Below, one piece after another: positions 35,068 through 50,889 of a stretch of DNA of 64,000 nucleotides. The position numbers were made by a program, and so were the translations under genes. The stretch's first letter is position 1, and each line of letters begins with the position of its first letter. Under the pieces are notes generated by a model. It worked only from the letters and a program-made list of their open reading frames with translations, did no database searches and had not been told where the DNA came from. Source of the DNA: Patescibacteria group bacterium (GTDB lineage Bacteria; Patescibacteriota; CPR2; UBA1875); assembly GCA_041737595.1 (NCBI GenBank), contig JBGSRK010000009.1, positions 32,001 to 96,000 of the forward strand. The letters are read 5' to 3'.

Positions 35068-35901
35068 ATGTATATTTTTTTTAGATTTTTCACTAGAGGT
35101 ATGTCCCATTTCTTCGAATCTATAAAGCTTGCATTTTCTTGTAATAAGTCCTATAAACAGTCTATCAAACCATTAATCGAAAAAATTTATAACTGTATGT
35201 TTTTTAATCCAAAGAAGAAAAATGAATGGAAGTTTTGGGATTATAAAATGTCAAAAAAAGTTAGTGAAATTATTAAGGGAGGGGAATTTAAGGAAATAGA
35301 AGATCCGGTAGAAAAAAAGTTTTATTTTTGGTTATTAGAAGAATTGTCTAATGATATTAACTTTAATAAATTAAACACCCTTGAGTTAGGTGCAGGTTCT
35401 GGAGCTTTTTCCTATTATTTACAGAAGCGCTTCAGATGCTCGGTTACACTTTTAGATAATAGTAAAAATGCCATTAAATACGCAAAGTTACTAAACTATA
35501 GAGCAAAAATATTAGAAAAAGATGCTCGGCAGTCATTTGGTATCAGTAAATATAATTTTATTCATACAACTGGGTTACTTGAACACCTTAATGACAAAGA
35601 TATAAAACAAATAATCAAAAACATTAAGCGAGCCTTAAAACCTAATGGTATAGCCTTCTTAGCAGTCCCAAATTATTTTAGCCCAGCATTAATAACACTA
35701 TGGAAAATTCACGGCAAGGGTTCAGAAAGGTATATAACAATAAGAGATCTTAAAAAATATATAAAATCTTATGGATTTAACTTGATTGCAGCTCGTCATT
35801 CGTATTTTAGTTTTGAAAAGATAACAAGATATATCTGGTTGGAGAAAATAATAGGTAGACTCGGTCTAGGCTTTTTAAATTATATTATTGTACAAAAATG
35901 A
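35068..35901 (+). CDS. Class I SAM-dependent methyltransferase (true start probably downstream, e.g. ATG 35248)
   Basis: LELGAGSG, LLD, GLLEHL, LKPNG, VPN. Confidence 0.85.
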   Translation: MYIFFRFFTRGMSHFFESIKLAFSCNKSYKQSIKPLIEKIYNCMFFNPKKKNEWKFWDYKMSKKVSEIIKGGEFKEIEDPVEKKFYFWLLEELSNDINFNKLNTLELGAGSGAFSYYLQKRFRCSVTLLDNSKNAIKYAKLLNYRAKILEKDARQSFGISKYNFIHTTGLLEHLNDKDIKQIIKNIKRALKPNGIAFLAVPNYFSPALITLWKIHGKGSERYITIRDLKKYIKSYGFNLIAARHSYFSFEKITRYIWLEKIIGRLGLGFLNYIIVQK

Positions 35902-36178
35902 AAACCAATAACGAACATTCAAATTATTAAAAACTTATATCTTGGTTACCAATTTATAATTTTTAAGGTTGAAAAATAATATAATGAGTTAGTTTATTTG
36001 TATTATTTGTAATTTTAGTTTAAAAGGAGAATTATTATATGACTAGATAAAAAATAATTTCTGAAATGTTTATTACTAACCAAAAGATTAAAATGGCTAT
36101 TTAATATATTATAGATTCTTATTGAATTTATTACGATTATGGCTTATTATTAATGAAATATTAAAAAAAGGAAAAATC

Positions 36179-37195
36179 ATGTATATATATAATAAAAAAT
36201 ATTTCATTGTTACACTGGTTGTATTGGCTTTATTCCTAATTACATGTATCGTATTTAATATTTATATGCCAAAAAAACAGACATCTAAAACAAAAATTAG
36301 AATTGGTTGGCAAACTCCTTGGGCTATTCAAGGACAAATAGCTCAAAGTTTAAAAAATACTGATTATTTATCAAAAAATAATCTAGAACCAGAGTTTACT
36401 GGTTTTGATTCTGGTGCTCCTCTTAATGAGGCTGCGTTAGCAGGTAAAGTAGATGTTATATTTACTGCGGATCAACCAGCCGCTACATTATTATCTAAAA
36501 GCAGTGACTGGGTAATTGTTTCGCGATTGATGTATAATAGGGTTTCTCTGTATGTACCACCAAAATCAAGTATTTTAAGCATATCTGATTTAAAAGGGAA
36601 AACAGTTGGTATGCCATTTGGGGCAGCGGCACAGAGAATGGCTTATAAAGCAGAACAAGATATGGGGCTAAAACCAGGCATAGATGTGAAAAATGTAAAC
36701 CTGGGAATCTATGAACAAAGTGATTTGGTAAAAAATTCTGAAGCAACTAATTGGGGCAACTTTGATGCCTTAGCAGGTTTTGATCCGACCCCAGCTGTAT
36801 TTGAAGATAAGGGACTTATAAAGATGCTTAAAACCGATACTGTTATTTCACTAGTACTTGTAAACAAAAAATATATTTCTGAAAATACTGACTCAGTTCG
36901 TAGTTTTCTAAAATCACTTAAGTCTAGTTATCTATTTTATGCACAAAATCAGGAAAAAGCTAACAAATGGTTTAAGGATGCTTCTAGACTAAATATCTCG
37001 GATAATGCACTAAAAATTTCTGCCTCTGTTGAACCAAACTTAAAAGCAAAAAAAGAAAAAGATATAATACTTAATTTAAATGATAATGATTATAAAATAA
37101 TGCAGGAAGCTGCAGACTTTTTATTCAATAATGGTTTAATAAAAACTAAGGTTGATATGCGAGCTAATGTGAATTTAGATTATCTTACAAAGTAA
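36179..37195 (+). CDS. NitT/TauT/SsuA-family ABC substrate-binding protein
   Basis: N-terminal TM anchor, IRIGWQ, SGAPLNEAALAGKVD, DLKGKTVG. Confidence 0.85.
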   Translation: MYIYNKKYFIVTLVVLALFLITCIVFNIYMPKKQTSKTKIRIGWQTPWAIQGQIAQSLKNTDYLSKNNLEPEFTGFDSGAPLNEAALAGKVDVIFTADQPAATLLSKSSDWVIVSRLMYNRVSLYVPPKSSILSISDLKGKTVGMPFGAAAQRMAYKAEQDMGLKPGIDVKNVNLGIYEQSDLVKNSEATNWGNFDALAGFDPTPAVFEDKGLIKMLKTDTVISLVLVNKKYISENTDSVRSFLKSLKSSYLFYAQNQEKANKWFKDASRLNISDNALKISASVEPNLKAKKEKDIILNLNDNDYKIMQEAADFLFNNGLIKTKVDMRANVNLDYLTK

Positions 37196-38313
37196 TGAAA
37201 AATATCCTACTTATTTCTATTGATTCTGTAAGAGCAGATGTAGCATATAATAGCAATCTACCTACATTAGATAATTTAGCAGCCGATGGTATAAAATACA
37301 TTAATTGTATTTCCTCCTCTCCTCTTACCCCAGTTAGTCATGCGACTGTTTTGACTGGTTTACAACCATTTAACCACGGTGTCAGACATCTTTTTAAGGA
37401 AAAAATGAATGACAAAAGACCAACATTAGCAGAAATACTGAAATTAAATGGATATAAAACAAGAGCCATTGTCTCTTGTCCAGGGATGAATAGTTGGTAC
37501 GGATTTTCTCGTGGTTTTGATATATACGATGATGAAATCCCAAAATTAACAGACGGTTCTGATGCTCTACTTACTGTTGATGTTGAAAAAAGAGGGTTAG
37601 CAATGAAAAGAGCGAAAGACGTAGTTGATAGGGCTATTTCACATATAGATGAGTTAGATAACAACTTCTTTCTTTTTGTTCACTTTTTCGATGCGCACTG
37701 GCCTTACAACCCTCCTAAAAAATATGGTGGAAAAAATAAATACGAAGAGGAAGTATTTTATACTGATCATCATTTAGGTAGACTTATTAATCACCTTAAA
37801 GAGATTAATAAGTATAAAGATACTACTATTATATTATTCTCTGACCACGGGGAAGATCTTGGCGGATGGTATCCGAACGATAAAGCAGGAGATAAATATG
37901 GTAATCCAGACGAAAAAGGTCATGGTACACTACTATATGATCAGACCATAATGACTGTTCTTATTATAAAAGACTCACGAATTAAAAAAAATCAGACTGT
38001 AATAGACCAAGTCAGGCTTGTTGATATTATGCCAACAATCTTAGATTTACTAGATATAAAAACTGATAATCAGTTTGATGGATTTAACCTTTTAAAGACA
38101 ACTGAAGAGGAGGGAAAACAGCTACTAGGCTATTCTGAGACTTTTTTCCCTGAAGAAATCAAAAGTGGTATTAGTAGAAAAAAATCATTCCGTTTAAATA
38201 ATACTTATAAAGTCATTATTGGGTTAGATAATGATGCAATTGAGTTTTATAACTTAATTGCTGACCCAAACGAGCAAAACAACATGTTTAAAACAATTGA
38301 CAAAAATGCATAA
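37195..38313 (+). CDS. Sulfatase-fold (alkaline phosphatase superfamily) enzyme, Thr at nucleophile position
   Basis: ISIDSVRAD, PLTPVSHATVLTG, HFFDAHWPY, SDHGE, GHG, DIMPTI. Confidence 0.88.
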   Translation: MKNILLISIDSVRADVAYNSNLPTLDNLAADGIKYINCISSSPLTPVSHATVLTGLQPFNHGVRHLFKEKMNDKRPTLAEILKLNGYKTRAIVSCPGMNSWYGFSRGFDIYDDEIPKLTDGSDALLTVDVEKRGLAMKRAKDVVDRAISHIDELDNNFFLFVHFFDAHWPYNPPKKYGGKNKYEEEVFYTDHHLGRLINHLKEINKYKDTTIILFSDHGEDLGGWYPNDKAGDKYGNPDEKGHGTLLYDQTIMTVLIIKDSRIKKNQTVIDQVRLVDIMPTILDLLDIKTDNQFDGFNLLKTTEEEGKQLLGYSETFFPEEIKSGISRKKSFRLNNTYKVIIGLDNDAIEFYNLIADPNEQNNMFKTIDKNA

Positions 38314-38325
38314 GTTTGGTAGAAT
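38297..38325 (+). promoter_or_regulatory. Sigma70 promoter of hisS overlapping sulfatase 3' end
   Basis: TTGACA-17bp-TAGAAT. Confidence 0.7.
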
Positions 38326-38380
38326 ATGCCCTACGAAGGCTCAGTGGGCTTTCGGGCCCCTTAAAAAGGAGAAGATTTAG

Positions 38381-39682
38381 ATGAATAAGAAAAGAGCAGG
38401 ACTCCTTAGTGGGTTCTTGGATTTCCTTCCCGAGGTAGAGCTCATGAGAGAGGCCATGATCGATAAGGTTACTGGCGTCTTCAAGCTCTATGGGTATGGT
38501 CCCCAAGATACTCCCTGTCTGGAGTACGCCGAGACCTTGTTAGACAAGTATGGTGAGAACCAGAAGCTTGTCTACGAGTTCGAGGACAATGGTGGGCGAA
38601 AGGTTGCCCTGAGGTATGACCTGACCGTTCCGCTTTCACGTGTGGTGCCGTCCTATCCAAGTAAGATCAAGCTTCCATTCAAGCGCTACCAAGTAGGCAA
38701 GGTGTGGCGAGCAGATCGTCCTGGTAAAGGACGTTTTCGCGAATTCATACAAGTAGATGCTGACACAATCGGCACGTCCTCGCCGCAGCTCGATTCTGAG
38801 CTTGTCATGGTTACACTTGATGTCATCGCCGCACTGAAGCTCACAGCATATGTGAGGATCAACGATAAACGGATCCTCGACGCTCTGAGCAAAACATGTG
38901 GTCTGACCGAAGAGCAGAAGATACTTGTACTGCGCTCAATTGACAAGCTGGATAAGATCGGTCAAGACGCTGTAGTTGTCGAGATTAGCAAGATTGGCCT
39001 CGATGCTGAGAAGCTAGATATCGTACAGCAGTATCTCGGCATCAACGGGATACCCCGTGAAGTCATCACCAGTCTTCGCGACTTGCTTCAGCCGTGTACT
39101 GAGCTTGACGAGGGATGCAAAGTTCTCGAGACAGTATTCGAAACCGTCTTTGCGCTTGGCTACGATGCCAAGTCTCTGCGTATCGATCCATGTATCGCCC
39201 GAGGCCTCGACTACTACACGGGAGTCATCTTCGAGACCATGCTGGTTGATAACCCAGAATTCGGGAGTATCTGTTCCGGCGGACGTTACGACTCGATCGT
39301 CAAGGATGGCAATGGCAGAGTTTTGCCGGCGGCCGGTGTTTCAATCGGCCTAGATAGACTCTTTGCGGCCATGCTTGATCGGGATCAGCTTCCCAATGCG
39401 GAAGCAGTTGCGAGAGTCCTCATTACAAACATGGGAGACTCTACTGCTCGGAAAGCAACAGAGATCGCCTCGTCACTCAGACGCGCCGGTATCTCTGTGC
39501 TTTACTACCCAGAAAAGGCCAAGCTCGCAAAACAGCTTGGCTACGCATCCGACCTTAAGATCCCTTGGGCCCTTATCGTAGGTCCCGAAGAGATCGAAGC
39601 CGGTATGTACACCATCCGTTCTATGGTAGACCGTCAGCAGACAACCGTACCCCAGGATCAAATCATCAAATCACTCCGCTAG
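38381..39682 (+). CDS. hisS: Histidyl-tRNA synthetase, canonical; GC-rich
   Basis: LRYDLTVP, WRADRPGKGRFREFIQ, ARGLDYYTG, GGRYD, GVSIGLDR, anticodon-binding domain. Confidence 0.95.
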   Translation: MNKKRAGLLSGFLDFLPEVELMREAMIDKVTGVFKLYGYGPQDTPCLEYAETLLDKYGENQKLVYEFEDNGGRKVALRYDLTVPLSRVVPSYPSKIKLPFKRYQVGKVWRADRPGKGRFREFIQVDADTIGTSSPQLDSELVMVTLDVIAALKLTAYVRINDKRILDALSKTCGLTEEQKILVLRSIDKLDKIGQDAVVVEISKIGLDAEKLDIVQQYLGINGIPREVITSLRDLLQPCTELDEGCKVLETVFETVFALGYDAKSLRIDPCIARGLDYYTGVIFETMLVDNPEFGSICSGGRYDSIVKDGNGRVLPAAGVSIGLDRLFAAMLDRDQLPNAEAVARVLITNMGDSTARKATEIASSLRRAGISVLYYPEKAKLAKQLGYASDLKIPWALIVGPEEIEAGMYTIRSMVDRQQTTVPQDQIIKSLR

Positions 39683-39715
39683 ATCAGTGGGGCGGCTTCG
39701 CCGCCCCACTGATCT
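39681..39715. terminator. Perfect 15-bp-stem hairpin after hisS
   Basis: AGATCAGTGGGGCGG-CTTCG-CCGCCCCACTGATCT; T tract weak. Confidence 0.65.
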
Positions 39716-39732
39716 CAATCTTTTAAACGAAA

Positions 39733-40368
39733 ATGATTATTTTAAATAACATATTAACATTATTTATTACAGATGGACTTGCCAGCCTTAGTCGGGTTTT
39801 TGTCGGTTTTTTTATTGCTATTATTCTAGGGGTAGGGCTAGGTACTATTACTTTTTATATAAAAGGGTATAGAAATATACTAAAATTAATTGCAGAATTT
39901 CTTAAGTCAATTCCACCCATAGCATGGATTCCTATTACTATTATGTTTTTAGGGCTTGGTTCGCAATCTGCGATATTTATAGTCTTTTTAGGTGGTTTCT
40001 TCCCTATTTTTCTTAATACAGCTTACGGCGTAACTTCAATGCCAAAAAAATATACTGAAATATCAAAAAATTTCGGAGTAAATGGAGTATATTTTTATCA
40101 TAAAATTCTCTTAGGCTATCTCATGCCATATATATTAACAGGGCTAAAAATAGGGATAGGGATTGCCTGGACAAGTGTAATTGCCTCTGAAATGATAGGA
40201 GTTCAAAGTGGTCTTGGCTATTATATTCAGATAAACAGACTTTTACTTAATACCCAGGAGGTAGTTACTGGCATGGTAATGATAGGCGTAATTGGTTACG
40301 GAATGACAAAGTTTGTTGAGAAAATTGAGAAGAAGTACTTAGTTTGGCAAGAGGCAAAGAATGCTTAG
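39733..40368 (+). CDS. NitT/TauT ABC permease
   Basis: SLSRV, IPPIAWIP, FFPI, ASEM, GLGY. Confidence 0.9.
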   Translation: MIILNNILTLFITDGLASLSRVFVGFFIAIILGVGLGTITFYIKGYRNILKLIAEFLKSIPPIAWIPITIMFLGLGSQSAIFIVFLGGFFPIFLNTAYGVTSMPKKYTEISKNFGVNGVYFYHKILLGYLMPYILTGLKIGIGIAWTSVIASEMIGVQSGLGYYIQINRLLLNTQEVVTGMVMIGVIGYGMTKFVEKIEKKYLVWQEAKNA

Positions 40369-41047
40369 ATTGGATAATGTTATTTTTAATAGAGGCGGCA
40401 AAAGAATACTTGAAAATATCAACATTCATATCAAAAAATCTGAAGTTGTGAGCATACTTGGACCATCGGGGATAGGGAAAACTACTCTTGCAAAGATTAT
40501 GTCAGGTTTACTGAATCCTATTTCTGGTTCAGTATTTTTAGAGGGGAATATTCTGAAAACCCCTGTACCAACACTAGTATTATCTCACCAAGAATCAGAT
40601 TTGTTTGATTGGTTGACGGTTGAGGAAAATGTAGGGTTAGTAGGTGGCAAGAAAAACGCAGAAAAATGGCTTAATATATTTGGTCTGGTTGAATACCGTA
40701 ATAACTATCCAAAAACCCTCTCAGGTGGTATGAAAAAAAAAGTTTCACTAGCTAGAGCCGCAAGTGTAAATCCTTCTGTAATAATTTTAGACGAGCCGTT
40801 CTCTTCACTGGATGAAAAACAAAAAATAAAGTATTATAAAGAATTTAAAAATTTAGCAAATCAAGAAGGAGTTGCAATTATTGTTGTGACTCACGACATA
40901 AACGAAGCATATAATTTTTCAAACAGAATTATTTTTCTAGGTGGCAACCCTGCGACTATAATAGATGAAAAAATTCCGACCGGGGAAGAAAGTTCAAGTG
41001 AAAAAAGAGATTTAGTACTAAAAAATCTTGAGTCGATAGGAAAATGA
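40361..41047 (+). CDS. NitT/TauT ABC ATP-binding protein
   Basis: GPSGIGKT, LSGGMKK, LDEPFSSLD, VTHD. Confidence 0.92.
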   Translation: MLRLDNVIFNRGGKRILENINIHIKKSEVVSILGPSGIGKTTLAKIMSGLLNPISGSVFLEGNILKTPVPTLVLSHQESDLFDWLTVEENVGLVGGKKNAEKWLNIFGLVEYRNNYPKTLSGGMKKKVSLARAASVNPSVIILDEPFSSLDEKQKIKYYKEFKNLANQEGVAIIVVTHDINEAYNFSNRIIFLGGNPATIIDEKIPTGEESSSEKRDLVLKNLESIGK

Positions 41048-41050
41048 AAG

Positions 41051-42391
41051 ATGAAATATTTAAAAACCGTACTCCCGATGGAAATAAATGAAATCCCAAA
41101 GGCAGCTTCGCTTTTAATATCAAGAGCAAGAGATTTTGAAGTCTTACTATTTTCTGAGGCAGGGAGCTGGCCTATTAAATATATTTGGGAAAAGATGGCT
41201 GCAAAAGATAATAATTATAATAAAGTATTTTTTTCATCAAAAATTACTTCATTTTCAAAAAGTCCACTAGCTAATCAATTGTGTGGACTGCTAACAATTA
41301 CTGAAAGAAAATCAAAGCTTTCTCAAAAGAAAAAAAATAAGATTGCTACACTTTTAAATTCATTTAATGATGAATTTAAAGGTAAAATAACAAATCAGTT
41401 ACTTAATCAAAATGTAGAAAAAATTATACATTATATTTCTTCAATGGGGCTTATAATCCCTAGTGAAGAAGGGTTGATAAAACAAAATAAATGTTTTGAT
41501 AATAATATATCCACACTTAGTAAAAATTTTATTGATTTTAAAAAAAAATCAGTATCATACATTCTTTCTGATCTCCCAAATATTAAACATGAAGTTAGGC
41601 CTATACTGCAGATAATTTTATCAGATACTAAATTTGGTAAAGCAATAAAGTCACGAAAAGTTTATGTATTTGATGAGATAATAAGTCGTGGGAGGACTAT
41701 CAATTCTATAGAAGTGATTATAAATTCATTTTCATCCACAACGGATTGGGTTATGGGAGTTGTCTATTGCCCAAAGTTTTATGTTGGAAGTAAAATTGAT
41801 TTTGTTTATAGCGATAAAAAGGCATTACCTACGTCAAATCGACCAGATATGATTGGAGAAGTGACTTATGAGACTGTATTTGCTTTTGAAACTAAATCAC
41901 TTACGAATATTTTGCCTAATACAAGAGTAAAAAATGAAGACGATATAAGTATTTATAACAGTGAAATTGCAAAGTTTAATAGTCGATATTTCCCAAAGCT
42001 TAAAATGTTAAATAAGACATCTTTTCGAGCTCTTTTAAACTTATACTTTATGGCTGACGATAAGGATATATTTGAAAAGTGCCTTCATCTTAATTTAGTT
42101 GAATCAGTAAGCCTTTTAGAAGAAATCGCTTTTTATATAACAATGCCATTTCCACTTTCAGATATTATAAAACGAAATAAGTTTAAAAAAGAATCACGGC
42201 AAGTATTAAAAAAATTAGAATGCTCAATAACTAATTCTGATTTTTCTGATAACCTTAACAAGCTAAAAATAAAGTACTATGCTATTAGAAGTATAATTAT
42301 TAAGAGTGAAATAGCTTCCTGGATAAAAACAAATACTAAAGTAATAAGGGAGTTAGACTTAGTACTGGAGGAGGTTTTTAATGGAAAATAG
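41051..42391 (+). CDS. Hypothetical protein with type I PRTase-like PRPP-binding loop
   Basis: KVYVFDEIISRGRTI resembles hhhhDDhhxxGxT. Confidence 0.5.
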   Translation: MKYLKTVLPMEINEIPKAASLLISRARDFEVLLFSEAGSWPIKYIWEKMAAKDNNYNKVFFSSKITSFSKSPLANQLCGLLTITERKSKLSQKKKNKIATLLNSFNDEFKGKITNQLLNQNVEKIIHYISSMGLIIPSEEGLIKQNKCFDNNISTLSKNFIDFKKKSVSYILSDLPNIKHEVRPILQIILSDTKFGKAIKSRKVYVFDEIISRGRTINSIEVIINSFSSTTDWVMGVVYCPKFYVGSKIDFVYSDKKALPTSNRPDMIGEVTYETVFAFETKSLTNILPNTRVKNEDDISIYNSEIAKFNSRYFPKLKMLNKTSFRALLNLYFMADDKDIFEKCLHLNLVESVSLLEEIAFYITMPFPLSDIIKRNKFKKESRQVLKKLECSITNSDFSDNLNKLKIKYYAIRSIIIKSEIASWIKTNTKVIRELDLVLEEVFNGK

Positions 42392-43778
42392 CTATAAACA
42401 TATTATTCTTATTTCTATTGATACTTTACGAGCAGACTGTATTACTGCAGTCGAAACTAGTGATTTTATAAAAAAATATGGTCCAAAAAATTTTTCTACA
42501 AAATCACTAAATAATATTGTGAAAAAAGGTACTTTTTTCACAAACTGTATCTCGGCAGCACCATATACAACAGCTTCACATGCAGCCTATTTTACTGGTT
42601 GTTGGCCTAAAAATAACGGAGTTTATGAATTCTTTAACCAAAAATTAAAGAAACCTACTATATTTGAATTTGCAAAAAATAACCAATATAGAACTATATT
42701 TCAAACTGACTTTCCTATTATTCTAGGTGAAACACTTGGGTTTACTAAGGATGTTGATGATTATTTTATTGAGGATGAAATATCAGCTTTTGACAAATTA
42801 AAAAATTCAACAAAAAAAACTGTTTCTTTTTTCCATTTTGGTGGTGTTCATTATCCATATGGGTTTCATAAACTAAAGTTTGCTGGAAAGGATTATATCC
42901 ATAAAGTTGAAAGTCTAGAAAAAGAATTATCCGTTAGTAGTAAAGACAAATTAGACGATATATTAGTAGAAAGCTATTATAATAACAAAGATAGAGAGCT
43001 ACTTTCCAGATATAAAAGGATAGTCGACAAACTTTACAGAGAAAAAAAATATAATCGACTGAAGAATCTATATATTGAGGGAATAGATTATTTTATGGAA
43101 AATCGGTTCAATAGCTTTATAAAAAAAATAGTTGATTTTACCGACAGCACTGGTAGTTTACTAGTTATCTTTGCTGACCATGGGGAAGAATGGGATGATT
43201 TATCGCGCGGACATGCAAATTCCATCTCTGACACTGTTCTTCGAGTCCCTCTTATATTCTATGGGAAGGGTATCCCAAAAGGCGTAATAAATGATAGTTT
43301 AGTTAGAACAATCGATCTTCTCCCTACTATTTCGAATTTATTTAACATAGAAACCCCTCAATTAGATGGCGTAGCCATGAAATTTACAAAAGAAAAGAAA
43401 AATACAAACAATATGGCAATTTCTCAGGTTTGGAGATTAGGAGATAAGGATAAAATAGCAAAACACCAACAAATGATGATTAACAAAGAAAAGGTGGCGC
43501 CCCTACAGACTCTCTTAGAAAAAGAATCAATATATTTCAAAAATGTAGCATTTAAAAGAATATACAACAAAGAAGGAACAACTATTTCTGAAAAAACATA
43601 TTATAATAATGGAAAACAACTTATAAATTCAGTTGATACACAAAATGAAGAGTTAATAATAATGAAAAATCTACTTGAGAAATATAATTCAAAAGGATTT
43701 CGAAAAGTTGAGGCGGCAATTAGTTTACCTAAAAGACTTATTAAAGAGCTTCGCATGCAGGGCTATAAAATAAAATAA
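42381..43778 (+). CDS. Second sulfatase-fold enzyme, Thr at nucleophile position
   Basis: ISIDTLRAD, PYTTASHAAYFTG, HYPY, ADHGE, GHAN, DLLPT, C-terminal LRMQGY. Confidence 0.88.
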   Translation: MENSYKHIILISIDTLRADCITAVETSDFIKKYGPKNFSTKSLNNIVKKGTFFTNCISAAPYTTASHAAYFTGCWPKNNGVYEFFNQKLKKPTIFEFAKNNQYRTIFQTDFPIILGETLGFTKDVDDYFIEDEISAFDKLKNSTKKTVSFFHFGGVHYPYGFHKLKFAGKDYIHKVESLEKELSVSSKDKLDDILVESYYNNKDRELLSRYKRIVDKLYREKKYNRLKNLYIEGIDYFMENRFNSFIKKIVDFTDSTGSLLVIFADHGEEWDDLSRGHANSISDTVLRVPLIFYGKGIPKGVINDSLVRTIDLLPTISNLFNIETPQLDGVAMKFTKEKKNTNNMAISQVWRLGDKDKIAKHQQMMINKEKVAPLQTLLEKESIYFKNVAFKRIYNKEGTTISEKTYYNNGKQLINSVDTQNEELIIMKNLLEKYNSKGFRKVEAAISLPKRLIKELRMQGYKIK

Positions 43779-43789
43779 AGGAGAATATT

Positions 43790-45076
43790 TTGCCTAAATA
43801 TAAAACAATTAAACCTCCCAGAGGAATGCATGATCAATTTGAAGAAGATTTATTAAAAATTGAATCAGTTATTTCTATAGCATCTGAGATTGCTAGATCA
43901 TACGGATTTAAAAGAATAGAAACCCCCACTATTGAGTCAATCGAAGTTTTCACAAATACTGGAGATAAGACGATTGATAAATGTTTTACATTTATGGATA
44001 AATCAAACCGCGAGATGATATTGAGACCAGATATAAATGCTCCAATCAGCCGCGCTATAGTAAATCATAGCTCATCTCAACCACTACCTCAAAAAATATT
44101 TTTCCATGGCAGCGTTTTCAGATATAGAAAATCATACCGACGTGAGTTTATTATGTTTGGGGTAGAGACATATGGGATTGCTGAGCCTATTGCAGACGCC
44201 GAAATACTTCGAGTAGTGGTTGATTTGATTAAAAGACTGGGTTTTAAAAAATATACGATTGAATATAGTAATCTTTCAATATTTAGTAGGTTGATTAAAT
44301 TTTTATCAAAGACAGACAAAGTTAATGTTAATGTAGAAGAGCTAATATATAAGCTTAGATTTCATAATAAAAAAGAGCAAAAAAGTATTTTAAATAAAAT
44401 AGGTTTCCAAAAAAAATCAGAAGAGCTAATCATGGATTTTCTATCTTGCCCAGAGGTGAATAAAAACAGCTTTAATTTACTTAAAAAGGTAGCGGCTATG
44501 GATAAGTCTATAGAAATTGAAGCTCTGTCTGTTCTGAATTTCCGAGATGAACTCTTAAAACAACAGTTATCAAATTGTATTTTTAAAATTTCAAATCTAC
44601 ATGGTGAATCATTTTACTCTGGTCTTACATATCGTTTATATTTATCAACAGAAATGGGAGATGGGGGAAGATATGACAATTTTACTCTTTTACTAGGGGG
44701 TTTATATATTCCAGCTACTGGGTTAGGTTTTGGTATTAGTAGATTAATTAGACTAGCAGAAGCAGAAAGTATATTAATCCCAATAAAAACAAACATAAAA
44801 TATTTAGTTCGAATAGTAAGAGGCTCTGAAGAAACTGTACGACCTTATCTGAGATTACTTAGGAAACAAAATATTATTGTCAACGAAATCCCTGAAGACT
44901 ATAAAGATGATCGGTTGATGCCATTTGCAATCAAAGGTGGTTATCACCGTATCTTTGTTATAAAAAGTTTTAACAAAATAAGTGGACTTTATGAAGTTTG
45001 GTCAATAAATATAGTTGATGGAACTAATAAAAAATTTTCTACATATGGTCTAAAAGATATATTTAATTGCTCATAA
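43790..45076 (+). CDS. Divergent HisRS paralog (HisRS/HisZ-like)
   Basis: PRGMHD, IETPTIE, LRPDIN, FRY..RREF, GGRYD, GFGISR; His-pocket motifs altered. Confidence 0.8.
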   Translation: MPKYKTIKPPRGMHDQFEEDLLKIESVISIASEIARSYGFKRIETPTIESIEVFTNTGDKTIDKCFTFMDKSNREMILRPDINAPISRAIVNHSSSQPLPQKIFFHGSVFRYRKSYRREFIMFGVETYGIAEPIADAEILRVVVDLIKRLGFKKYTIEYSNLSIFSRLIKFLSKTDKVNVNVEELIYKLRFHNKKEQKSILNKIGFQKKSEELIMDFLSCPEVNKNSFNLLKKVAAMDKSIEIEALSVLNFRDELLKQQLSNCIFKISNLHGESFYSGLTYRLYLSTEMGDGGRYDNFTLLLGGLYIPATGLGFGISRLIRLAEAESILIPIKTNIKYLVRIVRGSEETVRPYLRLLRKQNIIVNEIPEDYKDDRLMPFAIKGGYHRIFVIKSFNKISGLYEVWSINIVDGTNKKFSTYGLKDIFNCS

Positions 45077-45253
45077 TATTAAAATGTGAAGACAAACCAG
45101 GTAATATTATATTTAGATCTTTTCCCCAAATTACAAACTTAGGCGATGCGAGTAACGCAGTGACTATCCAGAAAGATATAGAAATGAGATAAATAAAACA
45201 TTATAAAAAGGGATAGTCTTTATGTTTCTTATATTTTTTAAGTATTAAAGGAA

Positions 45254-45283
45254 AGAAGCCACACCCCGCTGGGGTATGGCTTC
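45254..45283 (-). terminator. Terminator after purB
   Basis: Minus strand GAAGCCATACCCC-AGC-GGGGTGTGGCTTC-TTTCCTTT. Confidence 0.65.
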
Positions 45284-45306
45284 AATTCCGTTGTGTCTTA
45301 TTCGAT

Positions 45307-46713
45307 CTAGATGGTCAGTGAGCCAAGAATTTCGGTCCACTGGCCGACAATGCGCTCGGTCGACTCAATCGAGAGACCAATATAGTTATGCGCCGGATCC
45401 TTGATAGTCGCAAGTTCAGAAGCGTTGAAAGTGTTGATATAGGTACGAAGCTTCTGACTTTGAAGTGCGAGGTCCTGGACCGAGACCCCTGTCTCTTTCG
45501 ACTCGAGAGTCAAAAGACGAACAGCTTCATGCGCATCCGGATGACCGTGTTTGGCCAAAAGAATGTAGAGCTGCTCACCACATGAACCCTTTCTCATCTC
45601 GAGGTTGCGTTCCATGTTGCCAGTGTGAACCTGAAGCTTCTTCATCGTTTTTGTGATTTTGGTCACGACGATGTAGAGATAGCCCAGAATCTCACCATAA
45701 GTACGGCCGGATGCTGAGTTAGTTAGGTCACGTTGGTGCTCACAGATCTGATCAAGCTGGACCGTAACCCAGCGACCAACCAGAACCTTGTAGAGTGACT
45801 CCGCGTTTTCGAAGTTGATCGGGTTCTGCTTGTCGGGCATCGTTGATGACCCGACCTGACCAGCTTCGAAAAATTCACCGACTTCGGCAATTTCTGTACG
45901 CTGCAGGTTCCGCATATCGCGTGAGAGTCCGGCAAGGAGTCCGGCGGTCTGTACGACCTCAAACAGTAGGTACTGAAGCGGTTCAGGTGGTGCGATCTGA
46001 GTTGAGATCGGCGCCGGGTTGACACCAAGTCGGCCAAGCACAAGACGCTCGAACTCACGAGGATCATCCACTAGAAGCGAGCTGGCATTGTACGCTCCAA
46101 CTGCTCCAGAGAACTTCCCAACCAGACCGTTTTTGGCCTGGCAGAGTTTAAGAATCTTCTGACCAAGGGCGTCGACGTACTTTGAGATGGCATTGCCAAA
46201 GGTGATCGGAACGGCGTGTTGGCCGTGGGTTCGACCTACCTGAAGCTGAGCCTTCTCCCGGAGAGCAAGATCGATTAGGACCTTCTCGAGCTCGATCAGA
46301 GCCGGAAGAAGGACCTGTTCAGTCACTGCCTTGTAGCGCGCCACGTTGGCAGTATCGATAATGTCGTACGAAGTGGCAGCAAGGTGGACGAATGGACGGG
46401 CTTCTGGACTTACTCGAGCCTGAATGCAGTTGACGACCGCTCGGATGTCATGCCGTGTCAGATCTTCCTCCTTGTACACCTCATCGGTCGTGATCTGCTT
46501 GCAAGCCTCAGTGACCTCATCAAGGACATCAGACGAACAAAGGCCAAGCTCTGCAAGAGTGGCAACAAGCGCACACTCTGCCTCGAGCTTGTAATCCGTG
46601 AAAGCATTCTCGGACAGGAACGGTACGAGCGGAATCACATCCTTCGCGTAACGAGTATCGATAGGAGCAATCCCATCCCAACGGTCATAAGTGACTTTTT
46701 CAGTAGGCTCCAT
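45307..46713 (-). CDS. purB: Adenylosuccinate lyase; GC-rich (start probably ATG 46713)
   Basis: RHD, TSYDI, GRTHGQHA, GAVG, GSSTMPDKQNP, HQRDLTNS. Confidence 0.93.
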   Translation of the reverse strand: MEPTEKVTYDRWDGIAPIDTRYAKDVIPLVPFLSENAFTDYKLEAECALVATLAELGLCSSDVLDEVTEACKQITTDEVYKEEDLTRHDIRAVVNCIQARVSPEARPFVHLAATSYDIIDTANVARYKAVTEQVLLPALIELEKVLIDLALREKAQLQVGRTHGQHAVPITFGNAISKYVDALGQKILKLCQAKNGLVGKFSGAVGAYNASSLLVDDPREFERLVLGRLGVNPAPISTQIAPPEPLQYLLFEVVQTAGLLAGLSRDMRNLQRTEIAEVGEFFEAGQVGSSTMPDKQNPINFENAESLYKVLVGRWVTVQLDQICEHQRDLTNSASGRTYGEILGYLYIVVTKITKTMKKLQVHTGNMERNLEMRKGSCGEQLYILLAKHGHPDAHEAVRLLTLESKETGVSVQDLALQSQKLRTYINTFNASELATIKDPAHNYIGLSIESTERIVGQWTEILGSLTI

Positions 46714-46881
46714 GGCGATTATCTTCTCCTTTTTCAAAGGGCTGGACACAACGAGAATGTCGCTATTTTACTACCAAATAAGGGAAAGGTAAACGTGCTT
46801 TATATCCTAAATGTTCAAAAAACTTTATTTTTTTAAATCGATTTTAGTAAAAATAAAAAAATAGATAAAAAACATGAATTA

Positions 46882-46910
46882 TTTACAGTAAACGATTGTT
46901 ATGTTAATAT
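46882..46910 (+). promoter_or_regulatory. Sigma70 promoter of purE-purC2
   Basis: TTTACA-17bp-TAATAT with TGn extension. Confidence 0.6.
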
Positions 46911-46984
46911 ACCCGCACGTGTAAGAAAGACAAACGTCAAGATCTACAGTTTCCTTCAATAGAGAGGTAAGGTGAAAAGGCTCT

Positions 46985-47533
46985 ATGGCTGCAAACGTAC
47001 CGCTTCTTAGTACCAAATGGCCCAACAAAGAGGCATATGTCGCGATTGTGCTCGGTAGCAAGAATGATTACAGCAAGATCGAAAAGTTGATCGAGATGAT
47101 GGAGAAGTTCTCTATCCCCTACGTCATCGTCGTCATCTCGGCACACCGCAACAAGCAAAAACTCGACGAGTTCATCCAAGGATTATCTGCCACAAACGTT
47201 CGCTTTGTCGTAGCTGTCGCCGGTATGGCAGCAGCACTAGGTGGCGCAATTGCCGCGGAGACCTGTCTTCCAGTATTTGGCATCCCACTACCATCACCGA
47301 ATGACCCCGATGGTATTGGTGCCAAATTCGCAACCAATGAGTTGCCTCCAGGCATCGCACAAGTAGCAGTTCTGGCGGACAATGTCTCAGACAACAGCAC
47401 ACGAATCGTGAACTTGATTGCTCGAACTCTTGCGATCCTTGACCCCAACTATAAGGGGTTGAAAGAGTTCATGGCAAGTGCATCCGTCGAGAAGCCACCA
47501 GTCATTCCGTATGTTCCAAAGGAGGCGAGCTAG
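46985..47533 (+). CDS. purE: PurE-family AIR carboxylase/mutase; GC-rich
   Basis: GSKND, SAHR, AGMAAALGG, PVFGIP, LPPGI. Confidence 0.85.
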   Translation: MAANVPLLSTKWPNKEAYVAIVLGSKNDYSKIEKLIEMMEKFSIPYVIVVISAHRNKQKLDEFIQGLSATNVRFVVAVAGMAAALGGAIAAETCLPVFGIPLPSPNDPDGIGAKFATNELPPGIAQVAVLADNVSDNSTRIVNLIARTLAILDPNYKGLKEFMASASVEKPPVIPYVPKEAS

Positions 47534-48388
47534 ATGGCTCACAGAAGAGAAATCAACCGTGGCAAGACTAAGACGATCTACGAAGGCACCAAACTCGGAA
47601 CTGTCCACGTTGTCAGTCGTGACGACATAACCGCTGGCGATGGCCAGCGTAAAGATCTGATCCCGGGCAAGGGCCATCTTTCGACCGTCACTACCGCGAA
47701 CATGTTCATGCTTCTTGCCGCACACGGCATCCCTACCCACTTCATGAGCATGATCAATGGGAATACGTTCAAAGCGAAGCAAGTCGACATGATCCCGCTC
47801 GAATGTGTCGCTCGGAGACTCGCTGTCGGTTCGTTCCTTGATCGTCAGCCCTCGTTCAAATCCGATCCTCCTCACCGCTTCGAGGCGATTGTTACCGAGC
47901 TCTTCTACAAGAGCGACGCAGACAACGACCCGATCGTCGTTCCTCAGAGCAACGGTGAGCTCTGGATTCACGATGCACACAAGCCGATTACAGACGCAAC
48001 CCACAAGGGTATGCTTTCACCGGTGGCGTATCATGTCCCACCGGAGAGCTACAACGGCACTCAACTCGAACTCATCGAACAACTGCTCAAGATCACCGAA
48101 CGAGTCTTTGAGATCCTTGAGCAGGCCTGGCGACAAATGGCGAACGCTAATCTCGTTGATCTCAAGATCGAATTTGGGGTGACGAGTGATGGCGAGCTCA
48201 TAGTTGCCGACGTTATCGATGCAGATTCATGGCGTCTCTGGCCAGACGGCGACCCGAACCAGGCATGGGACAAGGACTACTACCGTCAGCATGCCGATGC
48301 TTCTCGCATTGAAGCTACTCTTCACAAGTACAATGAAGTAGCCAAGGCGAGTAACGTTGTTGCCACTTACCGAGACATGACATCCTAA
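47534..48388 (+). CDS. purC: Second SAICAR synthetase, PAICS-like type; GC-rich
   Basis: GKTKTIY, DITAGDG, LECVARR, DLKIEFG, ADVIDADSWRLWP, DKDYYR. Confidence 0.9.
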   Translation: MAHRREINRGKTKTIYEGTKLGTVHVVSRDDITAGDGQRKDLIPGKGHLSTVTTANMFMLLAAHGIPTHFMSMINGNTFKAKQVDMIPLECVARRLAVGSFLDRQPSFKSDPPHRFEAIVTELFYKSDADNDPIVVPQSNGELWIHDAHKPITDATHKGMLSPVAYHVPPESYNGTQLELIEQLLKITERVFEILEQAWRQMANANLVDLKIEFGVTSDGELIVADVIDADSWRLWPDGDPNQAWDKDYYRQHADASRIEATLHKYNEVAKASNVVATYRDMTS

Positions 48389-48447
48389 CCCCCTTAAGGG
48401 GAGAAAGAACCTGAAGGTTCCCTCTCTCTGAGAGGGGGCCTTTATTT
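48389..48447 (+). terminator. Long terminator hairpin after purC2
   Basis: CCCCCT...AACC-TGAA-GGTT...AGGGGG then CCTTTATTT. Confidence 0.6.
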
Positions 48448-48573
48448 ACAAAAAAGTGCTAAGCATATTAGTTGATTTGAGTCATTAATAGAAATAAGCT
48501 ACTTAAAGTAGCTTATTCAAGGTGTGTTATATTTAGCGAATTGGGGGGCAAGAGCTACAATCATAATCACTTA

Positions 48574-49663: not shown

Positions 49664-49740
49664 TGGCGATCCAGATGGGACTCGAACCCACGACCTCCGC
49701 CGTGACAGGGCGGCGCTCTAACCAGCTGAGCTACTGGACC
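49664..49740 (-). tRNA. tRNA-Asp(GTC)
   Basis: GGTCCAGTAGCTCAGCTGG...CCTGTCAC...GGTTCGAGTCCC...CGCCA cloverleaf with CCA. Confidence 0.96.
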
Positions 49741-49828
49741 GTATAAAAAAAGTCACCTTTCGATGACATAAAATCGCTGTCACCGATTACGAATATTATA
49801 GCAAAAATAAAAGAAATATCAATAGTAA

Positions 49829-50815: not shown

Positions 50816-50889
50816 ACCTTAATCATAAGTATTATAAATATAAAAACAAGTATACAAAGCTTATGTTTTTTTATAGTATTAAAGTACTT

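What the first reader, a model, noticed from the sequence alone, without database searches (positions are those of the whole stretch)
43790..45076. HisRS paralog keeps ATP-binding motifs but remodels the histidine pocket
Seen against the neighbouring canonical HisRS: RYDLT > RPDIN, motif-2 loop shortened (FRYRKSYRREF), FIQ > FIM, RGLDYY > HGESFY, while the motif-2 and motif-3 arginines and GGRYD remain; the C-terminal domain is divergent. No hisG is in the window. Inference: an adenylating ligase for a non-histidine or modified-histidine substrate rather than a HisZ regulatory subunit.
Basis: partly seen in the sequence, partly recalled or inferred. Interest (0 to 1): 0.7.

Follow-up and report, generated by a model that had tools for sequence, protein, structure and literature searches.

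The report
New HisRS-derived paralog in CPR bacteria
This gene encodes a conserved but rare offshoot of histidyl-tRNA synthetase that keeps the nucleotide-binding half of the enzyme, rebuilds the histidine pocket, and travels with its own extra HisRS gene in a mobile gene cluster of ultra-small bacteria, so it probably does new, non-translational chemistry.

Summary
ORF 43790-45076 (+, 428 aa) is an intact HisRS-fold protein. It belongs to a small clade of about 40 sequences seen only in CPR/Patescibacteria. The clade keeps the class II nucleotide-site residues (E. coli numbering R113, R123, F125, motif 3 G/R) in 35-38 of 38 rows. It replaces the histidine-site and catalytic residues: T85N, Q127M, R259H, D262G, Y263F, E270R, G284D, with a shorter motif 2 loop. 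Reference HisZ proteins show the opposite pattern.

It is not HisZ by function. No hisG was found in any of 6 genomes that carry it, and no histidine pathway in its own genome. In the tree it forms its own clade. It is also not the housekeeping HisRS, which is a bacterial-type hisS on another contig.

The "neighbouring canonical HisRS" is a dedicated archaeal/eukaryal-type HisRS. That gene lies directly upstream of the paralog in 20 of 27 loci. The pair sits in a rare, patchily distributed cluster with:
- a sulfonate-type ABC importer;
- two Thr-nucleophile alkaline-phosphatase-superfamily enzymes;
- either a PRT-fold protein or, in sister loci, a Mom-family (aminoacyl-tRNA-dependent) transferase.

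Best reading (about 0.4): a re-specified ligase or transferase that works with the partner HisRS, analogous to AcmD/AcmF in ascamycin synthesis. The substrate is unknown.

The parts
43790..45076 (+). HisRS-derived paralog (428 aa, TTG start). Full HisRS architecture with a remodelled histidine pocket and a degenerate anticodon-binding-like C-terminal domain.
   Evidence: AlphaFold model pLDDT 86.7. Foldseek top hit 1wu7, TM 0.79-0.82 over 433-434 columns.
43779..43784 (+). Shine-Dalgarno-like AGGAG/AAGGAG, 6 nt before the TTG start and directly after the stop of the upstream gene.
   Evidence: The N-terminus aligns with homologues.
38381..39682 (+). Partner HisRS ('HisRS_b'). A canonical archaeal/eukaryal-type HisRS with an anticodon-binding domain, on a 51.5% GC island.
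   Evidence: Pfam and NCBIfam hisS 360.5 bits, above the 286.75 cut-off. GC. Orthologues lie directly upstream of the paralog in 20 of 27 loci. Clade SH-aLRT 100.
38297..38325 (+). Promoter-like site (TTGACA-17-TAGAAT, 11 of 12, TG) just before HisRS_b.
   Evidence: A consensus match only.
39681..39715 (+). Terminator-like hairpin (16-bp stem, 11 GC pairs, T-rich tail) at the HisRS_b stop. With the promoter-like site it makes HisRS_b look like a self-contained inserted cassette.
36122..37195 (+). ABC substrate-binding protein, NMT1/THI5-like, with an N-terminal membrane anchor. Closest solved relatives are SsuA and TauA.
   Evidence: Conserved in the cluster at 52-59% identity.
37195..38313 (+). 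Alkaline-phosphatase-superfamily enzyme 1 (Pfam Sulfatase). It has Thr at the nucleophile position (TPVSH instead of C/SxPxR).
   Evidence: Alignment to 5g2v. Conserved in the cluster.
39733..40368 (+). ABC permease (BPD_transp_1).
40361..41047 (+). ABC ATPase.
41051..42391 (+). 446-aa protein with no Pfam family. It has an N-terminal type I phosphoribosyltransferase fold with a PRPP-loop-like VYVFDEIISRGRT motif, plus a C-terminal helical domain.
   Evidence: VIA Z 10.9 to 7kl6; 22 chains with Z>=8, nearly all PRTs. Homologues in 7 other loci plus 1 fragment (L009 and L040 are the same contig).
42381..43778 (+). Alkaline-phosphatase-superfamily enzyme 2 (Pfam Sulfatase). It has Thr at the nucleophile position (TTASH).
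   Evidence: Alignment to 9bes/9bb9. 48-52% identity in other loci.
35068..35901 (+). Class I methyltransferase directly upstream. Possibly part of the cluster.
   Evidence: Pfam. 27% identity over 176 aa to the methyltransferase inside the L027/L028 clusters. Weak.

Best explanation
The ORF encodes a functional HisRS-derived enzyme of a new clade. It is neither HisZ nor a translational HisRS.

It has the whole HisRS fold and keeps the class II nucleotide (adenylate) site. The pocket that holds histidine's alpha-amino group and the catalytic Arg259 is rebuilt around a new invariant set: Asn/Leu-His-Gly-x-Gly-Phe-Tyr-Ser, Asp291 and Met122.

It works together with a dedicated, canonical HisRS encoded beside it. 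The most likely mechanism is as follows. The partner HisRS supplies activated histidine, as His-tRNA(His) or His-AMP. Alternatively, the paralog itself activates a histidine-like acid. The paralog then couples that acyl group to a non-tRNA acceptor held in its remodelled pocket or nucleotide site. The acceptor or its precursor is brought in by the adjacent sulfonate-type ABC importer. It is then processed by the two Thr-nucleophile alkaline-phosphatase-family enzymes and by the PRT-fold protein, or in sister clusters by a Mom-family aminoacyl-tRNA-dependent transferase and methyltransferases.

Shown: fold, residue pattern, conservation, gene linkage, absence of the histidine pathway, rarity and mobility.
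Inferred: catalysis, the use of His-tRNA or His-AMP, and the nature of the acceptor.
For: **Real, selected family.**
- 25 relatives of 30-45% identity among 5.8 billion cluster representatives.
- 37 hits at E<=1e-30 among 1.84 billion representatives, with a score drop after about 19.
- 34 invariant columns in the 24-row alignment A2.

**Fold.**
- Model pLDDT 86.7.
- Full-length match to T. acidophilum HisRS 1wu7, TM about 0.8, including the C-terminal domain.

**Residue pattern over 38 family rows.**
- Kept: R113 38/38, R123 38/38, F125 38/38, G304 38/38, G308 35/38, R311 37/38, R287 38/38, Y264 38/38.
- Replaced: T85 0/38 (N in 26), Q127 0/38 (M in 32), R259 2/38 (H in 36), D262 0/38 (G in 37), Y263 2/38 (F in 36), E270 0/38 (R in 32), and 284 is D in 38/38.
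- 14 HisZ-like rows show the inverse: T85 14/14, Q127 11/14, E131 14/14, Y263 14/14, but F125 6/14, G308 4/14, R311 7/14. 12 of those 14 rows pass an NCBIfam HisZ cut-off.

**Not the histidine pathway, not the housekeeping enzyme.**
- hisG found in 0 of 6 genomes.
- A bacterial-type hisS lies elsewhere in 6 of 6 genomes.

**Partner linkage.**
- HisRS_b is directly upstream in 20 of 27 family loci. It lies in the same locus but apart in 3 (the window; L009 and L040, which are the same contig). It was not seen in 2 (L006, L010) and cannot be judged in 2 (L032, L041).
- The gaps are -38 to +62 nt in the 16 pairs with both genes whole.
- Pairwise distances of the two proteins correlate: Mantel r 0.83, matched by 0 of 2000 permutations, 15 pairs.

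**Cluster.**
- The importer genes are present in every locus long enough to show them.
- A Mom-family domain (PF25680, E 1e-12 to 6e-18) occurs in L028 and L029. L026 and L030 are 88-90% identical to L029.
- Mom transfers glycine from Gly-tRNA to adenine N6 (PMC13219725, abstract read).
- A tRNA-His gene sits next to the cluster in L008 and L042.

**Precedent (passages read in PMC12945691 and PMC4257720).**
- In the ascamycin cluster an extra AlaRS (AcmD) charges tRNA and is product-resistant.
- An AlaRS-like paralog (AcmF) moves alanine from Ala-tRNA onto a nucleoside sulfamate.
- That cluster also holds sulfatase-family genes and a phosphoribosyltransferase gene.
Against: - No biochemical data exist, and no ligand is identified.
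- E115, R121, R259 and E270 are all changed. From recall, R259H cripples E. coli HisRS about 1000-fold. A non-catalytic role therefore cannot be excluded.
- The E131 equivalent is kept only in subfamily A (28 of 38 rows). The pocket is therefore not uniform across the clade.
- HisRS_b was not found in 2 of 6 carrier genomes of unknown completeness (G003, G005). In this window it is 4.1 kb away on a foreign-GC cassette with its own terminator-like hairpin.
- The own genome showed no PRPP synthetase N-terminal domain hit. This leaves the PRT-fold protein without an obvious PRPP supply.
- The two 'sulfatases' carry Thr, not the formylglycine motif. The ascamycin parallel is therefore one of gene kinds, not of chemistry.
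- An SBP-dependent importer fits salvage at least as well as biosynthesis.
- In 2 of 27 loci (L011, L042) the paralog is split into two ORFs.
- The distance correlation may only reflect shared ancestry of the host genomes.
Confidence: 0.42

Rival explanations
1. It is a non-catalytic regulatory or scaffold subunit, following HisZ logic. The protein senses histidine, a nucleotide or uncharged tRNA(His). It controls another cluster component, for instance the PRT-fold protein (as HisZ controls HisG) or the ABC importer.
For: - HisZ is the one established bacterial HisRS paralog, and it partners a phosphoribosyltransferase.
- The window encodes a PRT-fold protein two genes upstream.
- Residues R259, E270, E115 and R121 are replaced.
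- The AU test did not clearly reject family plus HisZ as one clade (delta lnL 24.3, p 0.050).
- Public annotations call some members 'ATP phosphoribosyltransferase regulatory subunit'.
Against: - The conservation pattern is opposite to HisZ. The nucleotide site is invariant and the histidine site is changed.
- The PRT-fold protein is type I fold, not HisG. It is missing from loci that carry the Mom-like gene instead and from L004 and L039.
- hisG and the histidine pathway are absent.
- The most constant neighbour is HisRS_b, not the PRT-fold gene.
Confidence: 0.2
2. It is an obligate partner subunit of HisRS_b. The two homologues form a heterodimer, with one canonical and one altered active site. 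The altered subunit changes the specificity, regulation or inhibitor sensitivity of the dedicated HisRS.
For: - The genes are adjacent in 20 of 27 loci, with gaps of -38 to +62 nt in the 16 whole pairs. This is compatible with translational coupling.
- The two proteins have co-diverged (r 0.83).
- HisRS enzymes are dimers (recalled), and motif 1 Pro46 and other interface-region residues are invariant.
Against: - Two carrier genomes show no HisRS_b.
- In the window and in L009 the two genes are separated. The window's HisRS_b has foreign GC and its own promoter- and terminator-like sites.
- In L009 the two proteins have discordant relatives.
- No test of heterodimer formation was run.
Confidence: 0.15
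3. It is a genuine, very divergent third HisRS that still charges tRNA(His). It might, for example, be insensitive to an environmental HisRS inhibitor.
For: - It keeps R113, R123, R287, R311, Y264, GGRYD and, in subfamily A, E131.
- It has a full-length HisRS fold with a C-terminal domain in the anticodon-binding position.
- hisS is its best NCBIfam model.
Against: - It scores below the hisS cut-off in all 6 members scanned: the window's protein, P0004, P0012, P0022, P0024 and P0025.
- R259, E270, T85 and Q127 are conserved in 137-150 of 151 other HisRS rows and are all replaced here.
- Pfam finds no HGTP_anticodon domain.
- Subfamilies B and C have lost the E131 equivalent.
- Carrier genomes already hold one or two canonical HisRS genes.
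Confidence: 0.08
4. It is a decaying duplicate, or an artefact of a chimeric metagenome assembly.
For: - The genome is a MAG with 143 contigs, many of them small with odd GC.
- The window has GC islands.
- Two related loci have the gene split into two ORFs.
Against: - The ORF is intact, with a good ribosome-binding site.
- Its own GC of 0.307 matches the contig.
- The clade is conserved across many CPR lineages with invariant motifs.
- One 14,580-nt contig of run X1 covers 36000-48831 with no differences. A second sample, X2, covers all 30 bins. X1 may be the source sample.
Confidence: 0.02

Closest known systems
Histidyl-tRNA synthetase (HisRS; TIGR00442, Pfam PF13393 + PF03129)
   Same: - Same overall fold and domain order.
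- Class II motif 2 and motif 3 arginines, F125, GGRYD and Y264 are conserved.
- Nearest canonical relatives in the tree are archaeal/eukaryal-type HisRS, beyond the two odd rows P0068 and P0072.
   Different: - Scores below the hisS cut-off.
- HisA motif RGLDYY is replaced by HG(T/E)(G/S)FY.
- T85N, Q127M, E115R, E270R and 284D are changed, and the motif 2 loop is 3 residues shorter.
- The anticodon-binding domain is not recognisable by Pfam.
- It is an accessory gene in a mobile cluster, alongside a housekeeping hisS elsewhere.
HisZ, regulatory subunit of short-form ATP phosphoribosyltransferase (TIGR00443)
   Same: - A stand-alone HisRS paralog in bacteria that has lost canonical HisRS residues.
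- A phosphoribosyltransferase-fold gene is in the window's cluster.
- Some databases annotate members as HisZ.
   Different: - No hisG in 6 of 6 carrier genomes.
- Scores below the hisZ cut-off.
- Forms a separate clade, although the AU test is borderline.
- The conservation pattern is the inverse of HisZ.
- The PRT-fold neighbour is type I fold, not HisG.
aaRS-like transferases paired with an extra aaRS copy in natural-product clusters: AcmF with AcmD (ascamycin) and SbzA (SB-203208)
   Same: - A full extra aaRS plus a divergent paralog of the same aaRS, side by side in an accessory cluster.
- That cluster also holds sulfatase-family and phosphoribosyltransferase-type genes (PMC4257720 and PMC12945691, passages read).
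- The paralog's nucleotide site is retained.
   Different: - A different aaRS family and different organisms (actinomycetes versus roughly 1-Mb CPR genomes).
- The CPR 'sulfatases' have Thr nucleophiles.
- No sulfate-activation genes are seen.
- An SBP-dependent importer is present.
- No product is known, and tRNA dependence is untested.
Mom (phage Mu) family, aminoacyl-tRNA-dependent GNAT
   Same: It is a cluster-mate in sister loci L026, L028, L029 and L030. This points to aminoacyl-tRNA as a currency of the cluster.
   Different: - It is not homologous to the paralog.
- It is absent from the window's genome (tblastn).
- The PRT-fold protein that occupies the equivalent slot is unrelated to it (hhalign probability 0.1).
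- Conservation of the Mom catalytic residues was not checked.
GCN2 HisRS-like domain
   Same: A HisRS-derived module with degenerate catalytic residues that binds tRNA rather than charging it (abstracts listed).
   Different: GCN2's domain is eukaryotic and fused to a kinase. The protein here is a stand-alone 428-aa bacterial protein with no other Pfam domain. It was not included in the tree.

Membership tests
HisRS (histidine--tRNA ligase, TIGR00442) | Scores above the curated NCBIfam cut-off. | tested here: not met
   189.7 bits against a cut-off of 286.75. Five other members score 139-202 bits.
HisRS (histidine--tRNA ligase, TIGR00442) | Histidine-specific HisA motif with catalytic Arg259 (RGLDYY), plus T85, Q127 and E270. 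| tested here: not met
   The window's protein has H271, S274, F275, N83, M122 and R282. In the family R259 is kept in 2/38 rows, T85 in 0/38, Q127 in 0/38 and E270 in 0/38. Among 151 other HisRS rows these residues are kept in 137-150.
HisRS (histidine--tRNA ligase, TIGR00442) | Class II motif 2 and motif 3 nucleotide-site residues (R113, F125, R311, G-rich motif 3). | tested here: met
   R111, F120 and R318 in the window's protein. 35-38 of 38 family rows keep them.
HisRS (histidine--tRNA ligase, TIGR00442) | C-terminal HGTP anticodon-binding domain. | tested here: inconclusive
   No Pfam PF03129 hit. The model has an alpha/beta domain there, and Foldseek aligns the full length to HisRS structures.
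HisRS (histidine--tRNA ligase, TIGR00442) | Charges tRNA(His) with histidine. | not testable with these tools
   Needs an aminoacylation assay.
HisZ (ATP-PRT regulatory subunit, TIGR00443) | Scores above the curated NCBIfam cut-off. | tested here: not met
   161.7 bits against a cut-off of 271.65, and lower than its hisS score.
HisZ (ATP-PRT regulatory subunit, TIGR00443) | A cognate short hisG in the genome. | tested here: not met
   PF01634 was found in 0 of 6 carrier genomes. The own genome is 96.9% complete. The control search hit 14 of 14 reference genomes.
HisZ (ATP-PRT regulatory subunit, TIGR00443) | Groups within HisZ in a phylogeny. | tested here: inconclusive
   The family is its own clade (SH-aLRT 100), apart from the clade holding 9 of 10 HisZ-like rows. 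A tree forcing family plus HisZ together is only borderline worse (p-AU 0.050).
HisZ (ATP-PRT regulatory subunit, TIGR00443) | Histidine pocket retained, nucleotide and motif 3 residues degraded. | tested here: not met
   The pattern is the inverse.
aaRS-like aminoacyl transferase paired with an extra aaRS (AcmF/AcmD type) | A co-encoded full-length copy of the parent aaRS in addition to the housekeeping one. | tested here: met
   HisRS_b is in the same operon region. It is adjacent in 20 of 27 loci. A bacterial hisS lies elsewhere in 6 of 6 genomes.
aaRS-like aminoacyl transferase paired with an extra aaRS (AcmF/AcmD type) | Transfers the aminoacyl group from aa-tRNA to a small-molecule acceptor. 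| not testable with these tools
   Needs biochemistry. The acceptor is unknown.
GCN2 HisRS-like domain | Fused to a eukaryotic eIF2-alpha kinase domain. | tested here: not met
   The only Pfam hits are class II aaRS core families: tRNA-synt_His plus weak tRNA-synt_2b and tRNA-synt_2d. No longer or fused relatives were found (weak evidence).

The most novel reading that the evidence does not exclude
The HisRS_b and HisRS-like pair is a tRNA(His)-dependent histidylation module. It would be the first HisRS-based counterpart of AcmD/AcmF.

The dedicated HisRS makes His-tRNA(His). The paralog, or the Mom-like or PRT-fold partner, puts the histidyl group on a nucleotide or nucleobase acceptor built from an imported precursor. 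The product would be a histidyl-nucleotide conjugate. It could be a histidyl-adenylate mimic used by episymbiotic CPR bacteria against their hosts, with HisRS_b as the immunity enzyme. Alternatively it could be a histidyl mark on nucleic acid.
Probability: 0.15. Interest if true: 0.85.

Novelty: new variant of a known kind. Interest (0 to 1): 0.66.

Why it matters
aaRS paralogs repeatedly turn out to be enzymes of unexpected pathways. Examples recalled here are HisZ, AsnA, EpmA/PoxA, AcmF and SbzA. For HisRS, only HisZ and the GCN2 domain are established.

This clade is a third, independent HisRS derivative. Its design is opposite to HisZ. It always comes with its own canonical HisRS, in organisms with roughly 1-Mb genomes that cannot afford spare genes. 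Databases currently mislabel it as HisZ, HisS or 'HisS family protein'.

Its partner genes give a concrete, testable system for non-translational use of activated histidine. Those partners are the importer, the Thr-nucleophile phosphoesterase-like enzymes, and the PRT-fold or Mom-like transferase. The system could reveal a new metabolite or nucleic-acid modification in CPR bacteria.

Tried and rejected
**Histidine-pathway analogue.** I considered PRT-fold as HisG-like, the AP enzyme as HisE-like and NIF3 as HisI-like. I rejected this. There is no hisG, only a marginal partial His_biosynth hit, no PurH and no Prs N-domain.

**FGly-type sulfatases.** Rejected. Both enzymes have Thr where the formylglycine Cys/Ser sits, and His where the motif Arg sits.

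**PRT-fold protein and Mom-like protein as homologues.** hhalign gave probability 0.1, so I treat them as unrelated.

**Complex prediction, paralog with the PRT-fold protein.** No verdict, score 0.00. This is no evidence either way. The heterodimer with HisRS_b was not sent, because it would probably pass by likeness to solved homodimers.

**Searches that added nothing.**
- Protein atlas for the PRT-fold protein: only unnamed clusters scoring below 0.9.
- Foldseek for the PRT-fold model: nothing at E<=0.001. VIA-wide later gave the PRT fold.
- PADLOC: no defence-system match for the paralog, HisRS_b, the PRT-fold protein, either AP enzyme or the Mom-like protein (0 of those 6). The NTP_transf_2 protein of L004 gave 2 weak hits.
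- Fused or longer relatives: none found (weak evidence).
- RNA evidence: no RNA holder listed.

**Prevalence in the phylum.** Profile A2 was run on 401 genomes. Only G000 scored as a family member (532.7 bits). The other 42 listed hits scored 154-213 bits. The best 29 of them were checked, and none carries the NLHGxGFYSG signature. The remaining 13 lower-scoring hits were not checked.

**Extra tRNA(His).** The genome has 3 tRNA-His(GTG) genes. Two of them lie on contigs of 1.6 and 3.0 kb with other GC. All three are bacterial-type with encoded G-1 and C73, so no conclusion was drawn.

**Literature.** Searches found no paper on this clade. Supplements were closed and not seen; those of PMC5388404 and PMC13219725 might list such paralogs or Mom homologues.

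**Residue roles.** Alpha-amino contacts (E83, T85, Q127), imidazole contacts (E131, Y264), E115 with adenine N6, R121 and R311 with the gamma-phosphate, and the roughly 1000-fold R259H defect are all recalled. The passages read in PMC8558854 only list E83, R113, Q127, R259 and E270 as active-site residues, and name E270 for tRNA charging.

**Rows dropped before the residue counts.** P0024, P0062, P0063, P0069, P0068 and P0072. The first four are long, truncated or odd family-like rows. P0024 has E at the R259 position. P0068 and P0072 are the sister pair. An earlier count wrongly included P0181, a HisZ.
Full report
**What is at the coordinates.** ORF 43790..45076 (+) is 428 aa and starts at TTG. 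AGGAG lies 6 nt upstream, directly after the stop of the preceding gene. Pfam sees only the HisRS core (PF13393, E 2.2e-39) plus weak class II core hits, and no anticodon-binding domain. NCBIfam places it under both curated cut-offs: hisS 189.7 against 286.75 and hisZ 161.7 against 271.65. It is 25% identical to the HisRS at 38381..39682. Its best solved relative by sequence is Thermoplasma HisRS 1wu7 (E 1.9e-31).

- In E. coli numbering the window's protein has E83D, T85N, E115R, R121Y, Q127M, R259H, D262S, Y263F, E270R and A284D, and a motif 2 loop 3 residues shorter.
- It keeps D13, E47, R113, R123, F125, E131, D141, Y264, G285, G286, R287, Y288, D289, G304, G308 and R311.
- R259, E270, E83, R113 and Q127 are active-site residues in the passages read in PMC8558854. 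The finer roles I give to residues are recalled.

**It is a family, under selection.**
- The word-indexed search gave 25 relatives of 30-45% identity and 427-551 aa. The few named ones come from Parcubacteria, Levybacteria and Gracilibacteria, and are annotated as HisZ, HisS or 'HisS family protein'.
- The exhaustive search of 1.84 billion representatives gave 37 hits at E<=1e-30. Scores drop after about 19 (183 bits or more), then merge into the continuum of ordinary HisRS.
- The family signature is LR[PST]D[IP][ND]AP, FRYRHx-xRREFRMFGLE, NLHGxGFYSG and (A/G)DGGRYD. There are three subfamilies. Only subfamily A, which includes the window's protein, keeps the E131 equivalent.
- Of the 11 columns conserved in the family but not in other HisRS, 8 lie in E. 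coli residues 257-284, the two histidine-specific motifs.

**Opposite of HisZ.**
- Across 38 family rows (some near-duplicates) the nucleotide-site residues are kept in 35-38 rows. T85, Q127 and E270 are kept in none, and R259 and Y263 in 2.
- The 14 HisZ-like rows keep T85, E131 and Y263 in 14 of 14 and Q127 in 11 of 14. They keep F125 in 6, G308 in 4 and R311 in 7. 12 of these 14 rows pass an NCBIfam HisZ cut-off.
- In a 93-row maximum-likelihood tree (quick search, LG+G4) the family is one clade (SH-aLRT 100, stem 0.71). Its sister is two odd HisRS rows, P0068 and P0072, which still have the anticodon domain. Next come the archaeal/eukaryal-type HisRS. 9 of 10 HisZ-like rows form a separate clade.
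- An AU test of family plus HisZ as one clade gave delta lnL 24.3 and p 0.050. A remote common origin is therefore not firmly excluded. The group was named after the tree had been seen.

**Fold.** The AlphaFold model (24-row alignment) has pLDDT 86.7. It matches full-length HisRS structures, with 1wu7 at TM 0.79-0.82 over 433-434 columns. The HisZ-like 3od1 ranks third. The C-terminal part is an alpha/beta domain in the anticodon-binding position, divergent in sequence.

**Genome context.**
- The genome is 1.09 Mb in 143 contigs, 96.9% complete. It has three HisRS-like genes:
  - a bacterial-type hisS next to relA/spoT on C137 (LRPEGTA, RGLDYY);
  - the archaeal/eukaryal-type HisRS_b in the window;
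  - the paralog.
- There is no HisG, only a marginal partial His_biosynth hit, no PurH and no Prs N-domain.
- In five other carrier genomes hisG is also absent (0 of 5). Each has a bacterial-type hisS elsewhere. HisRS_b is present in 4 of the 6 genomes.

**The cluster.**
- The window's genes run as follows: (methyltransferase 35068) - binding protein 36122 - AP-family enzyme 1 37195 - HisRS_b 38381 - permease 39733 - ATPase 40361 - PRT-fold protein 41051 - AP-family enzyme 2 42381 - paralog 43790.
- 8 genome loci and 18 metagenome loci carry family members. Five further metagenome hits of 24-25% identity are not family members.
- Across the 27 loci including the window, HisRS_b is directly upstream in 20. 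It is in the same locus but apart in 3 (the window; L009 and L040, which are the same contig). It is not seen in 2 (L006, L010), and 2 are too short to tell (L032, L041).
- The gaps are -38 to +62 nt in the 16 pairs with both genes whole.
- Permease and ATPase genes follow in every locus long enough to show them.
- Variable members are NIF3/DUF34, class I methyltransferases, TauE, NTP_transf_2, peptidase S51 and an S66 LD-carboxypeptidase.
- The slot beside AP-family enzyme 2 holds one of two unrelated proteins. One is the PRT-fold protein, found in the window and 7 other loci plus a fragment. The other is a 442-448-aa Mom-family protein, in L026, L028, L029 and L030.
- Mom uses Gly-tRNA(Gly) to acylate adenine N6 in DNA (PMC13219725, abstract and passages).
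- The PRT fold rests on VIA-wide. Z is 10.9 to 7kl6. 22 chains have Z>=8 and nearly all are PRTs. Bcs3 and a ribofuranosyltransferase also cover the helical C-terminus. The model's pLDDT is only 73.9.
- Both 'sulfatases' have Thr at the nucleophile position and lack the C/SxPxR motif.
- The binding protein is nearest to SsuA and TauA.

**Mobility and rarity.**
- HisRS_b has 51.5% GC in a 31% GC contig. It has its own promoter-like and terminator-like sites.
- In many other loci both HisRS genes are 7-15 points richer in GC than their neighbours.
- A DDE transposase flanks L029.
- In 401 evenly drawn genomes of the phylum, only the window's genome carried a family member.
- The two proteins have co-diverged (Mantel r 0.83, 15 pairs). 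Shared host ancestry may contribute to this.
- The contig structure is supported by a 14.6-kb contig of run X1 (possibly the source) and by fragments in a second sample.

**Interpretation.** The data exclude decay, a HisZ role and a housekeeping role. An invariant nucleotide site, a rebuilt amino-acid pocket, a retained tRNA-side domain and an always-present dedicated HisRS fit best an enzyme that uses activated histidine, or a histidine-like acid, for a non-translational coupling. The closest precedent is the AcmD/AcmF pair and SbzA. The Mom-like cluster-mate in sister loci independently points to aminoacyl-tRNA chemistry. What remains open is whether the paralog is catalytic at all, given that E115, R121, R259 and E270 are replaced. 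Also open are which acceptor is used and whether the cluster makes or salvages its compound. I put the ligase/transferase reading at about 0.42, a regulatory pseudo-enzyme at 0.2, a heterodimer partner at 0.15, a true HisRS at 0.08 and decay or artefact at 0.02.

Noticed in passing
window 45307-48388: A 50% GC island in the 31% GC contig holds purB (- strand), purE and purC. The genome showed no PurH and no PRPP synthetase N-domain, so these three steps (AIR to AICAR) stand alone. A second sample's contig bridges the low-GC/purB boundary.
   Followed up: partly
window 49664-50815: tRNA-Asp (- strand, 49664-49740) lies next to a Fic/RhuM-family gene (49829-50815) and an unknown 325-aa gene (48574-49551). 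This is a possible edge of an integrated island that includes the cluster and the pur genes.
   Followed up: no
G000 contigs C72, C108, C118: There are three tRNA-His(GTG) genes in a genome with 44 tRNAs. Two lie on contigs of 3.0 and 1.6 kb with other GC. All have encoded G-1 and C73. Many small contigs of 47-59% GC suggest some contamination of the MAG.
   Followed up: partly
L008:5215-5291 and L042:5236-5312: A tRNA-His(GTG) gene lies directly downstream of the cluster's ATPase in these two closely related loci.
   Followed up: partly
L011:3113-4202 and L042 (ORFs of 97 and 347 aa): The paralog is split into two overlapping ORFs in these loci. This is either a frameshift, an assembly error or real decay.
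   Followed up: no
P0068, P0072 (no locus): The sister pair of the family consists of HisRS-like proteins with intermediate motifs (xMNAP, RGTMHY/RGTNHY) that still have an HGTP_anticodon domain. Their context is unknown.
   Followed up: partly
L050, L051, L054, L055, L058, L074 (genome search family f22 and others): In some CPR genomes the single HisRS hit has LKYE(L/V)M in place of LRPEGT, and my pattern found no RGLDYY-like motif. This may be another divergent HisRS type.
   Followed up: no
window 50803-53140: ComEC appears as two overlapping ORFs, a membrane competence domain (50803-52317) and a metallo-beta-lactamase domain (52295-53140). This was read from the translations only.
   Followed up: no
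L009:2309-3253, the syntenic 314-aa ORF L010:3921-4865, and L040: An S66 LD-carboxypeptidase-family gene sits divergently next to the cluster. It was scanned in L009 only and inferred for L010 and L040 from synteny. From recall, this family includes MccF, which cleaves aminoacyl-nucleotide antibiotics.
   Followed up: no
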